Below, one piece after another: positions 3,953-51,162 of a stretch of DNA of 64,000 bases. The DNA is from a virus (taxonomy: Duplodnaviria > Caudoviricetes). Every line of letters begins with the position of its first letter. Within the stretch, counting starts at the first letter, position 1. A program made the translations under genes and the position numbers. The DNA lies in the IMG/VR virus record IMGVR_UViG_3300020576_002947, positions 175,692 through 239,691 of that record; one strand, given 5' to 3'. The notes beneath the pieces were generated by a model, which saw only the letters and a program-made list of their open reading frames with translations, did no database searches and was not told the origin of the DNA.

Positions 3953-6900
3953 TACTGTTCTTCAATCTCCAGGTAAACGGTGAACTTAGCATGTGTAGCA
4001 TCAAGTGCGGTGAAATTAACTCTCAGCCATGCATCCGATGCTAATGTTGTTGTTGAGAAGGTTGTGGTGCTTGCTTCGTAAGTTGAGCCACCAGATAAGC
4101 TAACATCACCACCAGTATGAATGTTGGTAGCAGAGAAAGCACCAGTTCCATTATAGTACTCACAACGTACTGTCGTAGTTCCAGCAGAAGCCGTATTAAC
4201 TCTTACTCGGAGTTTCTTAGGTGTCCAGTTAGTTCCAGCATCAGCAAGCCTTGGAATAGGAATTTGAACGTCGTCTGCACCTGAAGCAGTAGGGGTATAG
4301 GCTGAGAAGAAGACAAGAGTTCTACGTTCTTTCTTAGCACTAATCTGCCCCTGTAGTTTTCCAATACCCTGTAATACTGTATCACCAGCAACTACTACTG
4401 AGTTGGATGAAGAGAGACCAGTTAATGTACAAGCTCGTACAGTTGCGTCGAAGTCACTAATCTTACTGGCTGTTAGTGTTGGAATATCTCCAGCAACCAA
4501 AGCTCTAAATGCAGGAACTGCTGAAGCTCCTGAAACAGGACCAGCAAAGACCAGTGAGCTAGCTTGATTAGCCCAAGCTGCTGTAAGAGTTCCAGATGAG
4601 GTAACGGGAGAACCTGTTACTGAGAACTGTGCAGGAAGCGAAAGAGCAACTGATGTAACAGTTCCTGTGCCTGCGGGAGTCTGCCAAGTACCATCACCTC
4701 TTAGGAACTGGGCACTTGTACCTACTGTTAAGGCACTAAGGTTTCCTGTAGCATCAGCCAGAACAACCTTATTACCCGTACCAGTAAAACCAGTTACGTT
4801 GATTGTTCCGGTAGAGAGAATTCTCATTCTCTCAGTAAGGGTTCCTCCTGTTGCTGTATAGAATACTAGACTTGCAGCGTCTTCGTTTGTTCCAATCTGA
4901 AGTGCCTCGATTTTTGCATTTTCCTTAGGTGCAGTTGAACCAGCCCACCATGAGATTTTTCCAATCGTGCCACCGTCAGCAATAGCATTGGAGTCAGTAA
5001 ACATCTCAAGGATAGGATAGACGGACGCTGTGTTTCGAATTTGCAGTCCGTTGTAACCAGAACCTGACAGAATAGTGTTGAGGTTGAATGTGAACGATGA
5101 CCCGCCAATGATGGTGTTCATCAGCCTGGTGTTTCCAGCATTAACCCACAAACTCCAAGGATTCGTCAGTGTGACATTTGTTCCAGCAACTGGAGGACCG
5201 CTTATGTAGGTGTTTACAGCATTTGTGTAGGTGACTGCTGAGTTAGTAGCAGCCAAAACTCCACCGCCAAATGAGTTGATGGTGTTCAGGGCAACAGTTG
5301 TGCTAGATGCGGTGCTAGTATCTGTAAAGATTGCACTGCCAAACCTAGCATTGATGCCATTTGAACCCCACGCCGTGCCAGAGTTGTTCCTAGCAACAAG
5401 AAAATTGACTGGCACGGCTGATGTTCCAATCATGACGGGATTCTGGAAAAAGTTTCTCGCCCCAATACCAACTGCGTAACCCTCATAAACGCCCCAGACG
5501 TTCGTCGGGTAGGATGCTGTACCCGTTCCGACAATCTGCAATCCATACGAGTTGGAAATTGTGAAAGTTGCTGGATTAGTAAAATCAGTTAGTACTCTGA
5601 CTCCATATGAGTTAGTTACAGTACCAGAACCAGTTGCGGCACTAGAAGCACCATGAATAAAGTATCCAGAGTAGATGTTGGAGAATATTCCAGCATGGGT
5701 AGATGTAACTATCTTACAGTCAGAGTATACCCCAGCTATTACACCAGATATAGTCTTACCGGAGGCTACAGAACTATTAGAAAGGCTAAACCATCCACCA
5801 TACTGGTTAGTAGCTGAAGTATCATTATAAGTGCTATTTACGTAGCTAAGGAAGCCATAATGTGTTCGTGCTGTAGTTGTGTTGTGAGTTGGAGTGGCAG
5901 AGAACTGACCACCAGCAACAGCTACATCAGTTCCAGAGTTACCAACAGTTAGTTTTGAGGTAGCTGAGGTGCTTCCGAGCCCAACAAAACCAGCATTATT
6001 AACCGTAAAGATACTCGTTGTATCACTATTAGTTATCCTAAGAGCATCTGTGGAACTAGTATTCCCATTTCCCTGTATCTGTACCCTATGACTTCCGCTA
6101 GGCACAAGACCAAAGCCAGTCATTCCAGCACCATCGGTATATACTGCGTTAGCATTTGCATCTGTAGCTACATTAAATGCAATTGTATTAGTAGTTGTAC
6201 CAGTGGTTGATACTTGAAGACCGTGCCTATTACTAGTACCTCCTGAGTGTCTAATAATAGCAGCGTAGTTTGCGTCACCTGCTGTCCTGGTAGCTGTAAA
6301 CTGTCCTATTGCAGCTACTACACCATCGTTTCTACAGGTAAAGTAAGCAGCTCCTGAATCAGGCCACACTCTTAACCCAAAACCACCTGAAGTAGCATCC
6401 GTACCAGTAATTGTTAGTCTAACACCAGAGGATAATGCCCCTCCAAAGCCAGCCTCAGTACCATTAAATTGGAAGTTTGCATTCGTACTTAGACCACTAG
6501 AAGTACTGTTATAAACAAAGCAACCATCGAGTAAGCTCGAAAGATTTAACCCTGTGATAGTTGGGGTGTTTGGAAGTGAGAACGTTAGTCCTGTGGCGTC
6601 TTCGGTAATGGTGATTTGATCAGTAGTACCAAAGAAGTTCTTTTTGGTAAAAGTGTCAGTTCCTGTCTGAAATACAGCACCGCTTGCAGTGTCTAGACCT
6701 GCCAATGCGGTTAGTGTGGAGTCTAAGCCTTGTGCATCACTAATACCGTATCCTGCTAGAGTAGTTGGAACACCAGAAGTAATATCTCCCCATGCGTGTA
6801 CATGCGAGCTAGGGGTAAATGAGGTTGGAACACTTGTTAGAGTAGACCACGGTACATCAGTAATTCCATACCCAGCAAGAGTTGTAGGAACACCCGACGT

Positions 6901-27341: not shown

Positions 27342-28928
27342 ATGGAAATCAGCACAGTTTCACAGAACATCATCGACGGCCTCAAGGCCATCAACGTCAC
27401 CCTGTCAGAGGTCAGGATTGAATTGCATCCTAACGATGCATTTGACAGCGCAGGAAAGCCCCAGCCGCATCTTCAGAGCCTCATCCTGGCAGGGTTCAGG
27501 AAGTTCGACATCTGCGAGTTTGAAGCAGATCAGAACAGAGCAAGCGGTGTCGGTCGCATCAACGACGGCATCAGAAAGTCCTGCATGGCTCACGCTCTCG
27601 CGTGGGGTAGCAATGCCCGAGAAGCAAAGGGACTTCTCACTTCGTTCGGACCTGACTTTTTGAGAACTGAGGTTCAGCGCTTGGTCAGGAACGGCATGAC
27701 CCCCGCCATGTTGCTTGCGGCAAGCCAGCCCAAGAAGGTGGCTTCTGCTTCAGCAGAGGTCGCTCTGGCCGATCTCGAATCCCTCTTCGAGTAGAGCGCT
27801 ATAGTTTGGGAAGGGCCCCCTCAAGGCCTTTCCCTTACTTCAGGACCTTCGCCTAAAGTTTAACCACCTGTCTCTCGTAAGCTTTGTTTTAAAAGCTGAA
27901 CAACTATCTGGGATTTATCCCCATGTCCGTCCGTTAAGAACAAAAGGCTATTATGGCTACTAAGAACGCAAACAACCCCACGTCAACCGCCGCTCCCATC
28001 AACACCGAAAAGGTCGGCCAGCCCGCCCAGGTCAACACTCCCAGCATTGAGGACCTCCAGGCCCTCGCTGGCGTGATGAAGAGCAACACCATCTCTTCAG
28101 AGAAGCCCAGGGTGGACTTCAAGCAATTGGGAGGCGATTTCGAAAGGAATCGAACTCCACTCTCTGAGCGCTTGGAACAGCTACCATTCCTGATCAGTGC
28201 TGGAATGGTCGTGGATGGCACCAGCACCGTATGGGGCAACTGGCATCTCCAGGCCCCCAGGCAGGAAGGCAGGACTCCGGTCCTCAGCTTCCACGTTCCA
28301 AGTGAGCGTGAAGTGACTTCCACTGTCAGGGGCAAGAAGCAGACCGTTCTCGAGACGGGCTATGACAGAGTCAAGGTCAGGATCACCGAAGAGGGCATCC
28401 TCGACAACTTGCTGGATCTGGATAGGTTGCCACACTTTGGCACCCTCGCCAGTGTGCTCTGTGACAGAGGGTCCATTGTGATCCTTTGGGAAGAGTAATT
28501 ATTAATTAAGTTATCACTAGGGAGGTCTTCAAGGGGCCTCCCACCAAAAGCCAATTGAGAGAACCAATATGAAGCGAAACTTTCTTGCCGCTGGCGTCGG
28601 AGCCTTGGCAGCCACTCTTGTCACTACTTCCGTCGGAGCCGTAAAGGCTTCTGGAAGAATGGCCGCTCAGATCCGGGACCAGTTCCAGGACACAACTGAA
28701 AGGGGGAGAAAGATCCAGTCCTATAAGGATTTGGACTTCCAGATCGAACAGGGAAACCTGGACCCCACCAAGCTCGAAAGAGCTAAGGACCTGCGCTCAA
28801 GGCTCGAGATCATTCTCTGGCCCAAGGCACAAACTCAGAGGAAGGATCATAGCGATATTGATTCATTCCTCTCAGAGATTGAGAGAGAATTCGACTTGAG
28901 CACAGAACCTGCTCAGGTCACCGACTAG
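27342..28928 (+). CDS. three GC-richer hypothetical proteins (27342-27794, 27953-28498, 28569-28928)
   Basis: ORFs separated by GC hairpins at ~27808-27834 and ~28519-28541. Confidence 0.75.
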
Positions 28929-29135
28929 GAGTTTCAGACTGCCCTTAACCAGGTAGCTGAGGAAGCGACCAATTAACCTTTAAGGGCATTGCCCATCTAA
29001 CCAGATTTAAAACTGTGTTAGGTGTGTAGTGCCCTTTTTAAATGCTGAAGCCTTAGCTTCTTGCTAGTTATACAATGATAAGGAAACTAGTAAGAGGTTA
29101 AGGCTTTTTTCCAGAAATCGCCTATATTAGTACGG

Positions 29136-29160
29136 GGGAGGGGCCCCTTTAGGGGAGGGG
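29136..29160. repeat. 25-nt G-rich intergenic repeat, copy 1
   Basis: gggaggggcccctttaggggagggg, identical at 33615-33639. Confidence 0.85.
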
Positions 29161-29182
29161 GTGAAACCCCCAGGAAAAAAGA

Positions 29183-32100
29183 ATGAAAAAGAAGATCAAC
29201 TTTGTTGACTTACTAATATCTTTGACATGCATAGTATCATCATTGATGCTTGCATATATTGTATTCTATCCTCATATTAAAAAGCGTCCTACTTTAAGGG
29301 AGGCATATGAAATGTGTCTTGAGGATACTAAAGACTTTAATAACTCTGATGAATGTGCATATAGTGAAGTACTATACTATTACTATCCTGAGATAGGAAG
29401 AGATCGTGCTGAGCATTGGGTATATAGTCCCTCTGAAGGAAACTTTATCTATGATGGTCCTGTAATAGACTAACATGCCTCCAGCACAGATAGTAAACAG
29501 CATTGTTAACAATCCTATTACTCTATATACTATGCTTTTTATTGGACCATGTTTTATTGTCTATTACCTCAAAACTCTAGCAGATAAAGCAAAGAGAGAG
29601 TATACTCATCCTGACGCTCCATTATTTGCTGTAGTAGAAGGAATAGTCACAATAGCTGTTATTGCTATAGTTACTATACTAAAGGTTACTAAGAACTTAT
29701 AACGTGAATGACAATGAAACAATCTCTCCAAATCATTATCCTTATATGTATGCTACTAATAGCAGCACTATGGTTAACATTTATTATTAACCTACCACCT
29801 AAGCTATCTACTAGACAAATACTAGGCTTAGTATTATTGTTTGCAGAGTTCCTACTGTTGACAGTTTTATATTACTACGTGTATAAAACTTCACAGTAAA
29901 AATAGTTTATTTTTTATATCTTAAATTTAGTGCTATCAATTATACAGCATTTGATTTTATATATTAAATATTCTGATATAGAATTTACGTGTTTTGATTT
30001 CTATACTCTTAGGAACTTAAATGACAATACTCACTCTACTCTCAACACAGAAGTTTACTAGTGGTATATACAATGGACACTATGTAGAAGATGTTATTCA
30101 TACTAATCCCATGTATGTTTCGTAGGCTATGGATAATCTATCTAACTTTAAGATTACTAATGATCTTAAGGATCTTCTCTATGAAGTACTTAATGATCAC
30201 TATCCTGATGATCCACAGTATGATTAGTTAATCTATATAAGTATTCTCTATCATTCATTCTATGTTCTATATCACTACGTTATTTATTTATATACGTTGA
30301 TCTTATATATTTTGGAAGAAAGGAAATGAAGAGCTGGCCCGAGATCCCTCCTATTACTGAAGAGAACCTTTATGCAGTTGTGTGTACTAAATCTAAACTA
30401 GTATGGAACAAAACACTTCAATGTCTTGAACCACATATGCTAGCTGGTCTACACCGCAGAGTATATGTGGCTAAAGATACTAATGATCCTGATGTGCTTT
30501 CTATCTTCATAAAACAACGCTGGGAGATGGTTAAAAGAAACCGATTTAAGTTTTCAGGTCCTATAAGGTCAGCCTAATATATACTATTATATTTATTGGA
30601 AGAAATACATTAGATAATCATTAGTGCAACTATGACACAAGAACAACTCTCAGCAACTAAGAAACTTAAAACCAGCTACCATATCTCTGGTCTAGCTATG
30701 CTGCTTGCAGCAACCTATATTCTTATTGTTACTATCAGAGTAATTATGGGATACCAGTTAGATCCAGTAACATGGATTCTACTTATCCTTAATGCTACTT
30801 TGTTCTATATAAACCATGATAGATCTCTTAATCTTAAGAGAGATATTAAAATATTGGGAGAACAGAAATGAACGCACACAGAGTCATTGAACAACTTATT
30901 AATAATCAAAAGTCTCACATTAAATCAGATATTCTATTTACTATTCTATATACACTATTGCTATTTGTTACCTTAACACAGGCAATTGTTAATCCGTTTA
31001 TTCTTACAATTTCTATTTGTGCTATTAACATATTCATGTTTGGATATACTGTATATACATTTAGTAAGGATATATCTACATTGAAGACTCTTAGGCTACA
31101 TGCGAAAGATCTATTATGAAACAGAACGATGAGCTTACTAATCACGTTATTAAACATCTTAAGATAAGTCTTCTCATTGATTCTATTATTATACTTGCCA
31201 ATGCTTTATCAATTTGTTTTTGTATCTATGATTATAACTCCTTTAGAAGTCAATACACATTTGTTATCTGTCTCAATATTATAGCTATTATTTGGTGTCT
31301 TATCACAATCAGACAGACGCAAAAAGAATTAAGAACTGCACAAGGAGAATCTAAATGAACCCAACCCACCCAACTATTAATGTTTCAGACCTTACAACTT
31401 GTCTGAGTCATTTTAAACTGGCACAGCAGATTGCTAACAAATCTATGCCTCTCATTGAACAGTTCTTTACAGACTTGATTGGAACTATTACTCTTGACAC
31501 ATGTGAAGACATCTGTAATGTTGTATCTGACACATGCATTAAGGAAGATTGTATTGAGTTCTCTATTAATTGGCTGGCAACAGGTATCGACGTTATGTCG
31601 ATTCACGGTAAGTTCGATTCATCTAACACCGCACCTCAAATTGATAAACTTGTTTTCTTTTATGCACCAACACAATATGGTGTACCTTGGACTGGACTGT
31701 ATGATAGAGAGTCACTTTTAAATGAGTATAGAAATGTTGATAAAGATAACTTCTTGGTAAGGTTTGATTGGTCAACTGATACCATGGGAATTATTACTAT
31801 CGATAATATCACTCCTGAAACTGATACTAACTGTCCCAGATTGAGGACAGTTCTTAGACAGCTTTATATTATTTAATTGAGAACCGTTCATGAACGAGAA
31901 CAGTAGTCAAAGATTAGACCTTTCTGAAATTCACAGTGATGTGATCTATCCTGCAATTGTTAATCATTTTGATACTTTGGTAAAAGGATTGTGTAATTTG
32001 TATCCCAAGCTAAATAGCGGACTCTTTACAACAGGTCTTCATAAACTTACTGTAAATTGCAATGGTATTAATGCTGTTATCGTCTTTAGACATAACAACA

Positions 32101-38652: not shown

Positions 38653-39321
38653 ATGAGCGCAATCAAAGCCTCACTATTCACTGCCGCTATCGTTGCATCA
38701 TCAGTTTTCGACTTCCTGTCAACGAGTGAAAACGCACAAGCGTTCAAGCTCGAGGATGACCATCGGAAATTGGTTATTGAAGACGCTGACATTCCGGTGC
38801 CAGCTGGTTCTCGTCGAAAGACGAAGGATGTTATGGCGACCCATGCAGTCGTCTCACTTGCGAAGATCAAGTCTCAGAACTTGGTCACGCTAAAAGCCGT
38901 CGCTGAGGGCGGCAATCACGACACGTACTACCGTGTCAATGTTGAGTTCTATGACGCCACTATTCCCGAAGAAGCCAAGATGCTCGGATCGGTTGAGGTC
39001 TGGGGTTACAACCCCAAACGGCCCAATCAGCTCGAGATTCGTGGCGGCGTTGGCCTCCCTAAGAAGGAGAGGTCCTCGGGTGATGGCAATACAAGCACAG
39101 GCTTGTATACCGATGATACCAAGCAGCCTGTCTGGACACAGGCAATGGTTCAACGCTTTATTGTGAATGCTATGACTGTCATTGCTGAGCAGAACCCCTC
39201 ACTGGCTAAGGCCATGATTGAGGTTTGGGAATCTCAGCAGGTCCCTGAGCCCGAACAGGTGAAAGAGGAAGACACGGTCGAACAACTGGCCGCGCTTGAC
39301 ACCGAATTTGCCGCTCCATAG
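38653..39321 (+). CDS. hypothetical protein with acidic C-tail (possible ssDNA-binding protein)
   Basis: GC-richer codon usage, acidic C-terminus; function speculative. Confidence 0.6.
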   Translation: MSAIKASLFTAAIVASSVFDFLSTSENAQAFKLEDDHRKLVIEDADIPVPAGSRRKTKDVMATHAVVSLAKIKSQNLVTLKAVAEGGNHDTYYRVNVEFYDATIPEEAKMLGSVEVWGYNPKRPNQLEIRGGVGLPKKERSSGDGNTSTGLYTDDTKQPVWTQAMVQRFIVNAMTVIAEQNPSLAKAMIEVWESQQVPEPEQVKEEDTVEQLAALDTEFAAP

Positions 39322-39327
39322 CAACTA

Positions 39328-39362
39328 GGGGGTATGGTTGAAAGACCATATCCCCTTTTTTT
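39328..39362 (+). terminator. rho-independent terminator
   Basis: ggggtatggt-tgaaag-accatatcccc followed by T-tract. Confidence 0.85.
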
Positions 39363-39487
39363 ATTAGCTTCGCCTAGATATTTTGCTAGTGTTTGATAGT
39401 ATTTTGCTACAATTTACTAGCCTAAATGGGCTATATCCCTATTCTACGTATGTCTACTATTCAGAAAAAACATTAAACCATTTGGTG

Positions 39488-39516
39488 TAGACAAAAGGTT
39501 CTAAGTCTACTATAAA
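39488..39516 (+). promoter_or_regulatory. sigma70-like promoter upstream of the ncRNA region
   Basis: TAGACA-17 nt-TATAAA, overlapped by GTAGAC/GTCTAC inverted repeats. Confidence 0.45.
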
Positions 39517-39947
39517 AGCAGTAGACACAATTTTATATAGTTAAAAGGGTAACATAAATCCTCAAAAGTATGTCCGTTAAGGACGGAAAAAAGGATAAAA
39601 GACGTTCTGTCTATCCCATGAGTAAAACCGAATATCGTGCTTTCAGAGCTACCTGGAACAGAAGTCCTCAGTGTGCTTCACGCTGAACAAACTTTCTAAC
39701 TTTCACGTAAAGTTTCTACCTTTTAGGCCCTGGCCTTAATAGAGCGCTCTTGGTCTCAATGTGAAAAGGAGTTGAGGCCCTAACTTTTTTATTCGTCCAT
39801 GACACCGTCAGGTGGTAAACCAACCGGATAATTAGACAGCGCCGAGCTTCCCGTACTGTCTACACGGACGCGTTATAAGGGGGTCGTTGGACTCGCAGCC
39901 TTTTCTCGACAGTTTAGGTTTGTAGACTTTCAGCGGGCCCCCTTATT

Positions 39948-40454
39948 TCAATTTGCCGGCTAGAGCAAAGGTATGGAGAAATCCATAAGCGGAGGTATGT
40001 TCACACATAGCCTAAGCCAAGCACCAGCTTTCTAAGGGTCATGTAAGTGGCCTTGATAACCCTGGTATGGTAGCATAGTGAAAGTAAAGTTACCGCCATT
40101 TTTAGTTCCATGACTTCTCGTAAGGGAAGGTAAAACACAAAGATTATAAAAGGTCTTTGTGAAAAACTTGTTGAAAGCAGCACTCGCAAGAGGCATTGCT
40201 ATAGACAAGGTAATTAAGTCATAAGCATCGCTCTTGGCTTGCACGGAATCGTTTTGATTTCCCTGTAAAGGGAATTGGACACACTCGAACAGCACTAAGT
40301 ACGTCCTGTAAAAGGGATACTCCTGGTGGGAAATAGGGTTGCGAAAGCATGCAGGGATGTGTCCCAGTGGGCTGATCTAACACTGAGCTGAATAGAGTAC
40401 TCATTCAGTAAGATCTGTTGTCAGGCATTCGTGTCGCACAACAGAAAAACTTGA
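39948..40454 (+). ncRNA. ROOL-like large ornate RNA
   Basis: ORF-poor, GNRA-rich; blocks ctaagccaagcac, gaaagtaaagttaccgccatttttagttc, gaaggtaaaac, ctatagacaag..aagtcataa, gtaaaggg, gcgaaag, agtgggctgatctaac..agctgaat occur in the order I recall for ROOL RNAs; near tRNAs. Confidence 0.7.
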
Positions 40455-40949
40455 TCGTCTTCTTGAATGTAATGGTGTAATAGAAACACACTCTGGTAAC
40501 AGAGAGTATACTAAGATGCAACTTCTTGGTACTGAGAGAAGACTTTTTTTGGACTGGATATGAAGAAATTGATACTCGCTACCCTCATAAGGTAGATAGA
40601 AGACAAACTAGGAAGGTCCAAACTTTTTTCTATGTAGTGGGTGGGAGCCCCGCGGGAGGGAGTTCCCTCTTTGTCCGAGAAGGCGTGCATAGAACCCAAT
40701 TTCCGTACGGAACACCTCGGGGCAGATAGCCCTTGGGACGGAAGTGCGTAGACGTAGTACCAAGACCTACGAAATCAAAACTTGGACCCTGCTGGGTTGG
40801 AGGTTGGTTCTGATCTGGTTCTCCATGGCATGAGGGTCCTTTAATTAGGACCCTTCAACTCTGTTAAAAAGAGTATCCTCAGGACCCTGGCACAGTCCTT
40901 TCCAGCTAAGCTAACTGAGGACAATCTTAGATAGGACGGTATTTTTGCT

Positions 40950-41558
40950 TTGAGCGAAAGACTCCCAACACCCTTACCTTTCTTTATTACATCCCTTATG
41001 GTTCCTGGTATCCTACTTTCACTTGCAGGCGGGCATTTTGCTTTAAAGCATACTATAAGAACTGAGTCTGTTACCATAACTGAGAAGAAAGCTATTGGTC
41101 CAGAAAGATTTATCTATGGTAAGAACTCTAATAATGAACTTGTTGTGATGACTGTAACCAACAATTGGTTACTCTTTCAAACAAATGCTAATAGTCTTTA
41201 TGATAAGCTACAAGTTTCTAAAACATACAACCTAGAAGTAGCAGGTTATATGAGTATTAAGTCTCTTATCAATATAAAATAATTAGTAATTAAGGTTATT
41301 ATGAAGGACCATTTTTATTTTGGTCATTTCAGGACAGAAGTAAGTTATGGACAGCTAAAACCTGAAGACATTCATGGCTACTTCAGAGGCCTAATGGTAG
41401 GTTTTTGGTGTTTCTCTTATATAAGAGAAGGTCGAGTTCTTGTAGGCACTCGTGGCAAAACATACCAGAGTGCTAGACTAGATGCTTTTGACGAATATAT
41501 TAAAACTTGTAATTTTTATAGAGTTTCTCCATCTGTTACAAGAGAGGAAATCGAATAA
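40950..41558 (+). CDS. two hypothetical proteins (40950-41282 with TM + beta domain; 41301-41558)
   Basis: ORF track. Confidence 0.65.
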
Positions 41559-41564
41559 GTACAA

Positions 41565-41874
41565 GGGCCTGTAGCTCAGTGGTTAGAGCACGCGGTTCAT
41601 CAAAGCTCCACACACTTTCCTTTTATTAGGTGTGTGATAGCAGGTGCCACAAGATTGGAAACTACTTGTGGGATCTCTCCTGTTCAGGAAAACCTAAGGA
41701 TCAATAAGGATAGATCTATGGCAATCGTGAGTACTTTGTAAAGAGTATGCAGAGACTGTACGGAGAGGGCCTAAACTCAGTAATGAGTACGGTCAAGAGA
41801 CAGTCCAGGGAGTCAGGAAACTGACACAAACCTGAACCGCATGGTCGTGGGTTCGATCCCCACCGGGCCCACCA
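41565..41874 (+). tRNA. trnI: tRNA-Ile2/Met (CAT) with group I intron; exons 41565-41600 and 41835-41874
   Basis: gggcctgtagctcagtggttagagca-cgcgg-ttCAT | aa-ccgca..ggttcgatcc..cgggcccACCA; body resembles tRNA-Ile. Confidence 0.9.
41601..41834 (+). mobile_element. group I intron (234 nt, no ORF)
   Basis: Exon ends in U, intron ends in G; P7 elements gcagagactgtac and aagagacagtcc. Confidence 0.88.
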
Positions 41875-50496: not shown

Positions 50497-51162
50497 CCTA
50501 TGAAGAATTTGAATCCCTAAAAGTTGGTGATGTTGTCAGAGTTGTTCCTAACAAAGGCTGTGCATACAATCCTGATATGCAGATCTTTATTACAAGAGAT
50601 AAAAAAAGTACCTATGCTAGATTTGTAGGTAGAGATAACGTAAATCTTGAAAACAATAGAATATATAATCTAAATGGACATCGCTTTTATGAAAGAGTAT
50701 TACCAGTTTGTATTTAAAAAAACCGATGACACGAACTGAATTCAATTCTTTACAAGTTGGTGATGTAGTAAAAGTTATAGCTACTAAAGACTGTGGCTAT
50801 TCGCATGGAACTGAGATAGTTATTACAAGACTACGTCTTCATAGTGATGATTGTATTAGTGGTATAAATGCAGTAAATCCTTGTGATATGATTGCATATC
50901 GTCTTTATAATCCTAATTTTTATTCTCGACTAGACAAAGTTTGTATATGACAGTTCAACAGTGGGATTCCCTAAAAATTGGAGATACTGTTACTGGAATT
51001 AAAACAAAAAGAGAGTATAGAATCTTAGGTAAAGACCTAAGAGAGTATAGAAGTAAGTATGGTCCAACATACTCTTACTTATCTATAGATGGTCGTGGTT
51101 ATTGTATACTATTAACACCATCATTTTATGAGCTAAAAATAGAAGATCTTGTCTGTATTTAA
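50493..51162 (+). CDS. three tandem ~70-aa SH3/KOW-like paralogs ending in VCI (50493-50717, 50726-50950, 50947-51162)
   Basis: MT..EF.SL.VGD.V pattern; C-termini PVCI, KVCI, LVCI. Confidence 0.8.

What the first reader, a model, noticed from the sequence alone, without database searches (positions are those of the whole stretch)
39558..40921. Array of about a dozen discrete stem-closed RNA modules flanking the ROOL-like RNA
Seen: ~1.36 kb with no credible ORF, more GC-rich than the flanks, parsed into consecutive units whose ends pair, joined by short A/U linkers: 39601-39666 (gacgttctgt/acagaagtc), 39668-39686, 39732-39779 (two alternative 5' partners for gttgaggcc), 39794-39870, 39875-39946 (long rod), ROOL-like 39948-40454, 40457-40543 (three-arm cloverleaf), 40548-40622, 40628-40694, 40701-40743, 40747-40771, 40784-40839, 40876-40921. 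The units are not sequence repeats of each other. Inference: a polycistronic cassette of unknown small RNAs (decoys or antitoxin mimics, Ro60 ligands, or cargo for a ROOL cage) or a much extended ornate RNA.
Basis: partly seen in the sequence, partly recalled or inferred. Interest (0 to 1): 0.8.

Follow-up and report, generated by a model that had tools for sequence, protein, structure and literature searches.

The report
Orphan GNRA-rich large phage RNA candidate
A 1.4-kb gene-free stretch of an uncultured 240-kb phage very probably encodes a large folded RNA of no known family, but it has no relatives in any database searched, so its proposed split into a dozen small RNAs and its likeness to ROOL RNA are unproven.

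Summary
The stretch 39558-40921 is truly non-coding, in any genetic code, and is GC-richer (0.45) than the genome (0.38). It lies in the last 64 kb of a 239,691-bp phage record, at the head of its tRNA and RNA-handling region.

It matches no Rfam family, even at E<=10. ROOL is specifically not matched, so "ROOL-like" is unsupported.

The best evidence for a plus-strand structured RNA is six hairpins of at least 5 bp capped by GNRA tetraloops. Shuffles give 0.45 and the minus strand has one. This is the highest count in the genome, and the same statistic also flags the phage's GOLLD and Ro60/Y-RNA loci.

Folding energy beats shuffles (z about -3.3) but no more than coding controls do.

Of the 12 flanking modules, 8 keep their closing stem under local folding and 3 clearly do in the unconstrained ensemble (two more near 0.4).

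No homologue was found. The flanking proteins are orphans, so covariation could not be tested.

The same phage carries a real GOLLD RNA elsewhere (105 bits, E 1e-29).

This scan has noted other new large jumbo-phage RNAs on other DNA. None resembles this one in sequence.

Verdict: a plausible new large phage RNA, known from this one record and unverified.

The parts
39327..39362 (+). Intrinsic terminator of the upstream 222-aa gene. It marks the left border of the non-coding block.
   Evidence: A 13-bp stem followed by a T7 run.
39379..39420 (+). Two tandem 21-nt repeats (TATTTTGCTA...) in the AT-rich spacer. Possible regulator-binding sites.
   Evidence: family D2. The 10-mer TATTTTGCTA occurs only here in the 240-kb genome.
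39449..39527 (.). Four GTCTAC/GTAGAC half-sites, including the 7-bp inverted repeat 39505-39526 that overlaps the -10 box. Operator-like (inference).
   Evidence: D7, D11; hairpin 39505-39526; P>0.8. The extended motifs are local only.
39488..39516 (+). Sigma-70-like promoter TAGACA-17-TATAAA (10 of 12 matches). The predicted start is near 39523-39525.
   Evidence: Own scan. It is the only good sigma-70-like site (10 of 12) on the plus strand between 39300 and 41000; the one other, weaker hit (9 of 12, at 39338) lies inside the upstream gene's terminator. The tool's stricter scan missed it because it requires T at the last position of the -10 box.
39558..39790 (+). 5' segment. It holds hairpin 39668-39686 (8 bp) and hairpin 39752-39779 (9 bp), then CUAAC and a U6 run.
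   Evidence: T-run positions.
39794..39946 (+). Two robust stem-closed domains: 39794-39870 (branched) and the 72-nt rod 39875-39946.
   Evidence: Closing-helix P is 0.73 and 0.90 unconstrained, and 0.97 and 0.90 under local folding. The rod has z -3.5 on the plus strand against -1.1 on the minus strand.
39948..40454 (+). It has hairpins capped by GAAA (39972-39987), GUAA (40035-40054, 40114-40129, 40259-40274) and GGGA (40349-40362), plus further stable hairpins. No supported closing helix.
   Evidence: z is -3.6. No Rfam match.
40457..40550 (+). Three-arm module closed by an 8-bp stem, with a GUAA-capped middle arm, followed directly by a U7 run. Candidate 3' end of the main RNA.
   Evidence: P is 0.95 and 0.98 and z is -2.8. 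T7 run at 40544-40550. It is not a tRNA.
40548..40628 (+). A 75-nt module followed by a U6 run. Its fold is ambiguous: a local closing stem competes with the long-range pairing of 40546-40554 to 40673-40681.
   Evidence: P is 0.87 under local folding and 0.01 unconstrained. z is -0.9.
40629..40921 (+). GC-rich (about 0.5) 3' segment of uncertain fold. It is either the tail of the RNA, separate small RNAs, or the leader of the next gene.
   Evidence: Modules 40784-40839 and 40876-40921 are not supported.

Best explanation
The block encodes one large, highly structured non-coding RNA on the plus strand. It is made as a single primary transcript from the sigma-70-like promoter at 39488-39516.

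Its best-supported body runs from about 39794 to the U7 run at 40550, roughly 750 nt. This body comprises two stem-closed 5' domains, a core with many GNRA-capped helices, and a three-arm 3' domain. The 5' leader (39524-39790) and the 3' tail (40551-40921) are less certain parts.

By context it belongs to the same functional niche as GOLLD and ROOL: large ornate RNAs of phage tRNA islands. It is not a detectable member of either family.

Inferred, not shown: the many GNRA loops serve tertiary or intermolecular contacts that build a compact, possibly multimeric, particle acting in the phage's RNA-handling programme.
For: - The 1.6-kb gap is the largest non-coding stretch of a tightly packed 240-kb genome and is GC-richer than the genome.
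- There are six GNRA-capped hairpins of 5 bp or more on the plus strand. 2000 dinucleotide shuffles give a mean of 0.45 and none reached six. The minus strand has one.
- This is the highest count of any 1364-nt window on either strand of the genome. Windows with four or more also include the GOLLD locus and the Ro60/Y-RNA locus, which serve as internal positive controls. Other such windows are unexplained, and at least one lies over ORFs, so four or five can occur outside known RNAs.
- Several helices contain G-U pairs that only the plus strand can form.
- A single good sigma-70-like promoter lies upstream, and U-runs follow stems at 39785, 40544 and 40623.
- Context: the locus heads a region with at least 14 tRNA genes, some split by group I introns, plus a Ro60 (TROVE) gene. 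A bona fide GOLLD lies at genome 4407-4801, scoring 105 bits, E 1e-29.
- GOLLD and ROOL are known to sit near tRNA islands in phages (PMC5737381; bioRxiv 10.1101/2024.12.08.627333).
Against: - No homologue was found, so there is no covariation and no evidence of conservation.
- Folding energy is no better than that of some coding controls.
- The secondary structure is not uniquely defined, since local and global ensembles disagree for about half of the block.
- There are no expression data.
- The phage encodes its own RNA polymerases and sigma factors (earlier notes, not tested here), so a sigma-70-type promoter and U-run terminators may not be the relevant signals.
- A distant relative, G001, shows no comparable GNRA-rich gap.
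Confidence: 0.55

Rival explanations
1. A polycistronic cassette: one transcript, or several short ones ending at the U-runs, is cut into about 8-13 separate small stem-closed RNAs. These would act individually, for example as decoys, Ro60 ligands or tRNA-like mimics.
For: - Eight of 12 modules keep their closing helix under local folding.
- Linkers are short and A/U-rich.
- Three modules are followed by U6-U7 runs.
- The phage encodes Ro60.
- From my own knowledge, not checked here: T4 makes stable small RNAs from its tRNA cluster.
Against: - Any sequence folded locally parses into stem-closed domains.
- Module z-scores are mostly weak (-0.4 to -2.2), and the boundaries were chosen so that the ends pair.
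- No module matches tRNA, Y RNA or any other Rfam family, and ARAGORN finds none except a spurious relaxed-threshold call.
- No internal promoters were found.
- GNRA hairpins cluster in one roughly 530-nt body rather than being spread over the units.
Confidence: 0.17
2. The stretch has no RNA function. It is decayed former coding sequence, or a DNA-level element such as a regulatory region or replication or packaging site, and its hairpins are incidental.
For: - It is a singleton with no conservation evidence.
- Its MFE z is no better than that of coding controls.
- The spacer at 39363-39557 does carry repeats typical of protein-binding DNA.
Against: - The strand-specific excess of GNRA-capped hairpins, six against 0.45 expected and one on the other strand, is not expected of DNA elements or decayed genes.
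- No protein remnant is detectable.
- There are no repeats inside 39558-40921.
- High GC is unusual for phage origins or spacers.
Confidence: 0.2
3. A very long structured 5' leader that regulates the downstream genes (40950-41558) or the tRNA cluster in cis, for example through serial attenuators.
For: - It has the same orientation as the downstream genes.
- Stem-plus-U-run elements at 39752-39790, 40536-40550 and 40615-40628 look like successive weak terminators.
- GUUGAGGCC has two alternative 5' partners, at 39732 and 39752.
Against: - A 1.4-kb leader has no precedent known to me.
- There is no riboswitch, T-box or leader match in Rfam.
- The downstream ORFs are small and of unknown function.
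Confidence: 0.08

Closest known systems
GOLLD RNA (Rfam RF02032)
   Same: A large (over 700 nt), multi-domain, GNRA-rich non-coding RNA located in a phage tRNA island. The same phage carries a true GOLLD.
   Different: The region has no sequence or structure match to the GOLLD model. The only significant GOLLD hit in the genome is at 4407-4801. There is no similarity between the two loci.
ROOL RNA (Rfam RF03087)
   Same: The core is of comparable size, about 507 nt against an average of 581 nt. The genomic niche is the same: phage, near tRNAs (PMC5737381).
   Different: There is no match to the ROOL covariance model at E<=10 in the region or the genome. The defining junctions and pseudoknots cannot be recognised from one sequence.
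Other unclassified large structured RNAs of jumbo phages noted earlier in this scan (e.g. e1-5511232, e1-5645354)
   Same: ORF-free, hairpin-dense stretches of 0.4-1.1 kb in jumbo phages that match no Rfam family.
   Different: Those were reported as conserved, with covariation, in 13 to hundreds of relatives. This one has no relative, and it shares no short words with any of them. I did not check their claims.
Bacterial and phage Y RNAs (Ro60 ligands)
   Same: The phage encodes a TROVE/Ro60 protein. Some modules are stem-closed with internal loops.
   Different: There is no Rfam Y-RNA match. There is no similarity to the sequence next to the phage's Ro60 gene. The locus lies 19 kb from the Ro60 gene.

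Membership tests
ROOL (RF03087) | Match to the family covariance model (gathering score 99.1 bits) | tested here: not met
   cmscan of 39300-41300 with permissive filters at E<=10 gave no ROOL hit. The ROOL model run against the whole 240-kb genome at E<=10 gave none. That tool warns that its control genomes hold no ROOL, so one search is the firmer negative.
ROOL (RF03087) | [quoted passage not shown] | tested here: inconclusive
   The core is 507 nt with many hairpins. Junctions and pseudoknots cannot be established from a single sequence, and the thermodynamic ensembles disagree.
ROOL / GOLLD niche | Located in phages or prophages near tRNA genes | tested here: met
   The locus is in a jumbo-phage record. 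tRNA genes lie from 41565 onward and across the record ends.
GOLLD (RF02032) | Match to the conserved 3' domain model (416 positions) | tested here: not met
   There is no hit in the region. The only significant genome hit is 4407-4801, at 105.2 bits and E 1.2e-29.
tRNA / intron-split tRNA | Cloverleaf with T arm and anticodon arm, detected by ARAGORN or Rfam RF00005 | tested here: not met
   None was found in 39558-40921. At a relaxed threshold ARAGORN proposes a tRNA-Arg with a 762-nt intron, but it has mismatched arms, so I judged it spurious.
Group I / group II introns, RNase P, tmRNA, 6S, Y RNA and all other Rfam 15 families | Covariance-model match | tested here: not met
   Only three chance-level hits (E 1.6-9.6), to unrelated eukaryotic or terminator-like models.
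Structured RNA in general | Compensatory base changes in homologues | not testable with these tools
   No homologue was found in any collection.

The most novel reading that the evidence does not exclude
The phage makes two unrelated giant ornate RNAs: a GOLLD, and this new GNRA-rich RNA of roughly 0.75-1.4 kb that represents an undescribed family. Like GOLLD and ROOL, it would assemble into an RNA-only multimer and work with the phage's tRNA, Ro60 and RNA-repair gene set.
Probability: 0.3. Interest if true: 0.7.

Novelty: new variant of a known kind. Interest (0 to 1): 0.45.

Why it matters
GOLLD and ROOL form RNA-only cages, but their function is still unknown. A phage that carries a GOLLD plus a second, unrelated large RNA would be useful for that question. 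The same roughly 50-kb region also holds tRNAs, Ro60 and its neighbouring RNAs and, by earlier notes, a CCA-adding enzyme. Such a phage would be a compact natural system for asking what these RNAs do and whether different ornate RNAs cooperate. For now the case rests on one sequence. Its value is as a lead for deeper metagenome mining and for in vitro structure work.

Tried and rejected
**Homologue searches, all empty**
- blastn against 50,697 phage records.
- Two 21-mer scans of IMG/VR and one 22-mer scan of JGI metagenomes.
- BLAST of the region against five IMG/VR relatives reached through a capsid alignment gave only chance hits.
- Synteny through the flanking proteins failed. The 800-aa polymerase-like protein and the 222-aa protein have only themselves in the 5.8-billion-protein index. 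They have no IMG/VR relatives. An exhaustive phmmer search of the 222-aa protein gave only two weak partial hits.
- The long contigs of the 34%-identity capsid relatives from NCBI and Logan could not be searched.
- The closer relatives, at 52-55% capsid identity, sit on contigs of 6 kb or less.

**Readings rejected**
- Recoded or decayed protein gene.
- Intron-split tRNA.
- Paralogue of the GOLLD locus or of any other part of the genome.
- Genome-wide promoter motif in the spacer. The enriched intergenic 8-mers belong to a family of small paralogous genes.
- Palindromic kissing-loop enrichment: 17 six-mers against 17.3 in shuffles.
- The shared 16-mer AGGYCCWAACTTTTTT at two module ends is near chance by my own estimate.

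**Uninformative or failed**
- Folding-energy z-scores proved uninformative in this genome.

Full report
**Where it is**

The window is the last 64 kb of a 239,691-bp IMG/VR phage record judged about 94% complete. By capsid and terminase it is only distantly related to known phages: 22-27% identity to Bacillus phage 0305phi8-36-like, Moorella and Acinetobacter ME3 jumbo phages. Its nearest metagenomic capsid relatives are 52-55% identical, on contigs of 6 kb or less. All others are about 34% identical or less.

The finding lies between two features. Upstream is the strong terminator of a 222-aa gene (39327-39362). Downstream is a small ORF starting at 40950.

Downstream, and continuing across the record ends, is an RNA-rich region:
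- tRNA genes, two of them split by long introns;
- a group I intron;
- a DNA ligase and a TROVE/Ro60 protein;
- a GOLLD RNA at genome 4407-4801.

The GOLLD matches the full Rfam model at 105.2 bits, E 1.2e-29. That is below the 150-bit gathering score, so the default scan did not list it.

**The observation**

The absence of coding capacity is solid.
- No ORF of note is present.
- No open frame appears under reassigned stop codons.
- The longest frames show no Pfam or PHROG remnant.

GC is 0.45 against 0.379 for the genome. The units are not repeats, and the block has no paralogue in the genome.

That property is weak evidence, because any sequence folded locally breaks into stem-closed domains and the boundaries were chosen to pair.
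- With a pairing span of 110 nt or less, 8 of 12 closing helices have P>0.5.
- In the unconstrained ensemble only three are clearly supported: 39794-39870, 39875-39946 and 40457-40543.
- There the 3' modules are replaced by long-range helices, for example 40329-40352 with 40683-40704.

Energy z-scores are about -3.3 to -3.4, but coding controls from the same genome range from -0.2 to -4.0. The verified GOLLD scores -4.1. Sliding 120-nt windows do not stand out either.

**What does discriminate**

The plus strand carries seven hairpins of 4 bp or more capped by GNRA tetraloops, six of them with 5 bp or more.
- 2000 dinucleotide shuffles give a mean of 0.45, and none reached six.
- The minus strand has one.

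Among all 1364-nt windows on both strands of the 240-kb genome this is the maximum. It scores six to seven; seven includes the upstream terminator hairpin.

The other windows with four or five include the GOLLD locus and the Ro60/Y-RNA locus. In this genome the statistic therefore also recovers the one verified and one probable structured-RNA locus. A few further windows remain unexplained, and at least one overlaps ORFs, so four or five can occur outside known RNAs.

Four of the loops are GUAA. Six of the seven hairpins fall between 39972 and 40504. This points to one GNRA-rich body rather than evenly distributed small units.

**Signals**

One sigma-70-like promoter (TAGACA-17-TATAAA, 39488-39516) lies in the AT-rich spacer. 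No comparable site lies between the modules. The promoter is embedded in locally unique repeats:
- two tandem 21-mers;
- four GTCTAC/GTAGAC half-sites, one pair forming an inverted repeat over the -10 box.

This looks like an operator, which is an inference.

U6-U7 runs follow stems at 39785, 40544 and 40623. The cleanest candidate 3' end is the U7 run directly after the three-arm module, at 40550. Earlier notes say the phage encodes its own polymerases and sigma factors, so these host-type signals are suggestive only.

**Identity**

cmscan of 39300-41300 against all 4227 Rfam families, with permissive filters at E<=10, gave only three chance hits. The ROOL model found nothing in the genome at E<=10. 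GOLLD matches only the other locus. ARAGORN finds no tRNA; its relaxed-threshold call of a tRNA-Arg with a 762-nt intron has mismatched arms and I discard it. 'ROOL-like' is therefore not supported as membership. What remains is a likeness of size and niche (PMC5737381; 10.1101/2024.12.08.627333).

**Homologues**

None was found by any route.
- DNA searches were empty.
- Five IMG/VR relatives with 32-35% capsid identity carry neither this sequence nor ROOL nor GOLLD.
- The most complete of them, G001, has no comparably GNRA-rich gap.
- The flanking proteins are orphans even in an exhaustive phmmer search.

Covariation, the decisive test, could not be run.

**Reading**

| Reading | Confidence |
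|---|---|
| One large plus-strand structured RNA | 0.55 |
| Cassette of separate small RNAs | 0.17 |
| No RNA function, or a DNA-level element | 0.20 |
| Giant cis-acting leader | 0.08 |

For the main reading, the best-supported body is about 39794-40550. The leader and tail are uncertain. It occupies the GOLLD/ROOL niche without belonging to either family.

Shown: non-coding, GC-rich, strand-specific GNRA-hairpin excess, no known family, RNA-island context.

Inferred: the transcript ends, single-molecule status, and any tertiary or multimeric assembly.

**Relation to earlier notes of this scan**

- The Ro60 note (e1-5664958) is borne out for the protein only.
- The ROOL-like label on my own stretch (e1-5664954) is contradicted.
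- The scan has reported several new large jumbo-phage RNAs on other DNA. None shares sequence words with this one.
- Several of those reports cite GOLLD as RF01998. In this Rfam copy RF01998 is group-II-D1D4-1, and GOLLD is RF02032.

Noticed in passing
same genome, outside the window: G000:C1:4407-4801 (+), locus L038:1501-1895: A bona fide GOLLD RNA: full-length match to RF02032 at 105.2 bits, E 1.2e-29. It is below the 150-bit gathering score, so default Rfam scans miss it.
   Followed up: yes
Rfam accession used in earlier notes of this scan: Earlier follow-up reports cite GOLLD as RF01998. In the Rfam 15 copy used here RF01998 is group-II-D1D4-1, and GOLLD is RF02032. Any GOLLD test run with RF01998 tested the wrong model.
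   Followed up: yes
window 39363-39557: The AT-rich spacer has two tandem 21-nt repeats and four GTCTAC/GTAGAC half-sites around a sigma-70-like promoter. The motifs are unique to this spot in the genome, so this looks like a dedicated operator for an unknown regulator.
   Followed up: partly
window 41565-41874: With introns allowed, ARAGORN calls a tRNA split by a 234-nt intron. It labels it Gln(CUG), with the intron after position 34. Rfam's Intron_gpI model does not reach its gathering score here.
   Followed up: partly
window 27400-29500 (+); genome 74300-76700 (+); genome 8100-9900 (-): These are the next-highest counts of GNRA-capped hairpins in the genome, four to five per 1364 nt. The first lies over ORFs. 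The second includes a 506-nt ORF-free gap at genome 75324-75829. Both may hold further structured RNAs or introns.
   Followed up: no
genome 18300-21800 and window 50500-51000: A family of about a dozen small tandem paralogous genes. Each starts in a conserved GGT(T/C)TGTATATGAC junction and shares a ...TTGGTGATRTTAT... motif about 36 nt downstream. They are shorter than 80 aa, so they show up as 'intergenic' in coarse ORF maps.
   Followed up: no
window 38653-39321: The 222-aa gene just upstream has 0.50-0.54 GC in a 0.38-GC genome, an N-terminal hydrophobic segment, and no homologue in 1.8 billion representative proteins.
   Followed up: partly
genome 9017-9105 (L004): An Rfam tRNA-Sec match just above threshold (49.1 bits against a 47-bit cut-off) in the phage tRNA island. 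The distant relative G001 also has an ARAGORN tRNA-SeC(tca) call and a tRNA(cta) call.
   Followed up: no
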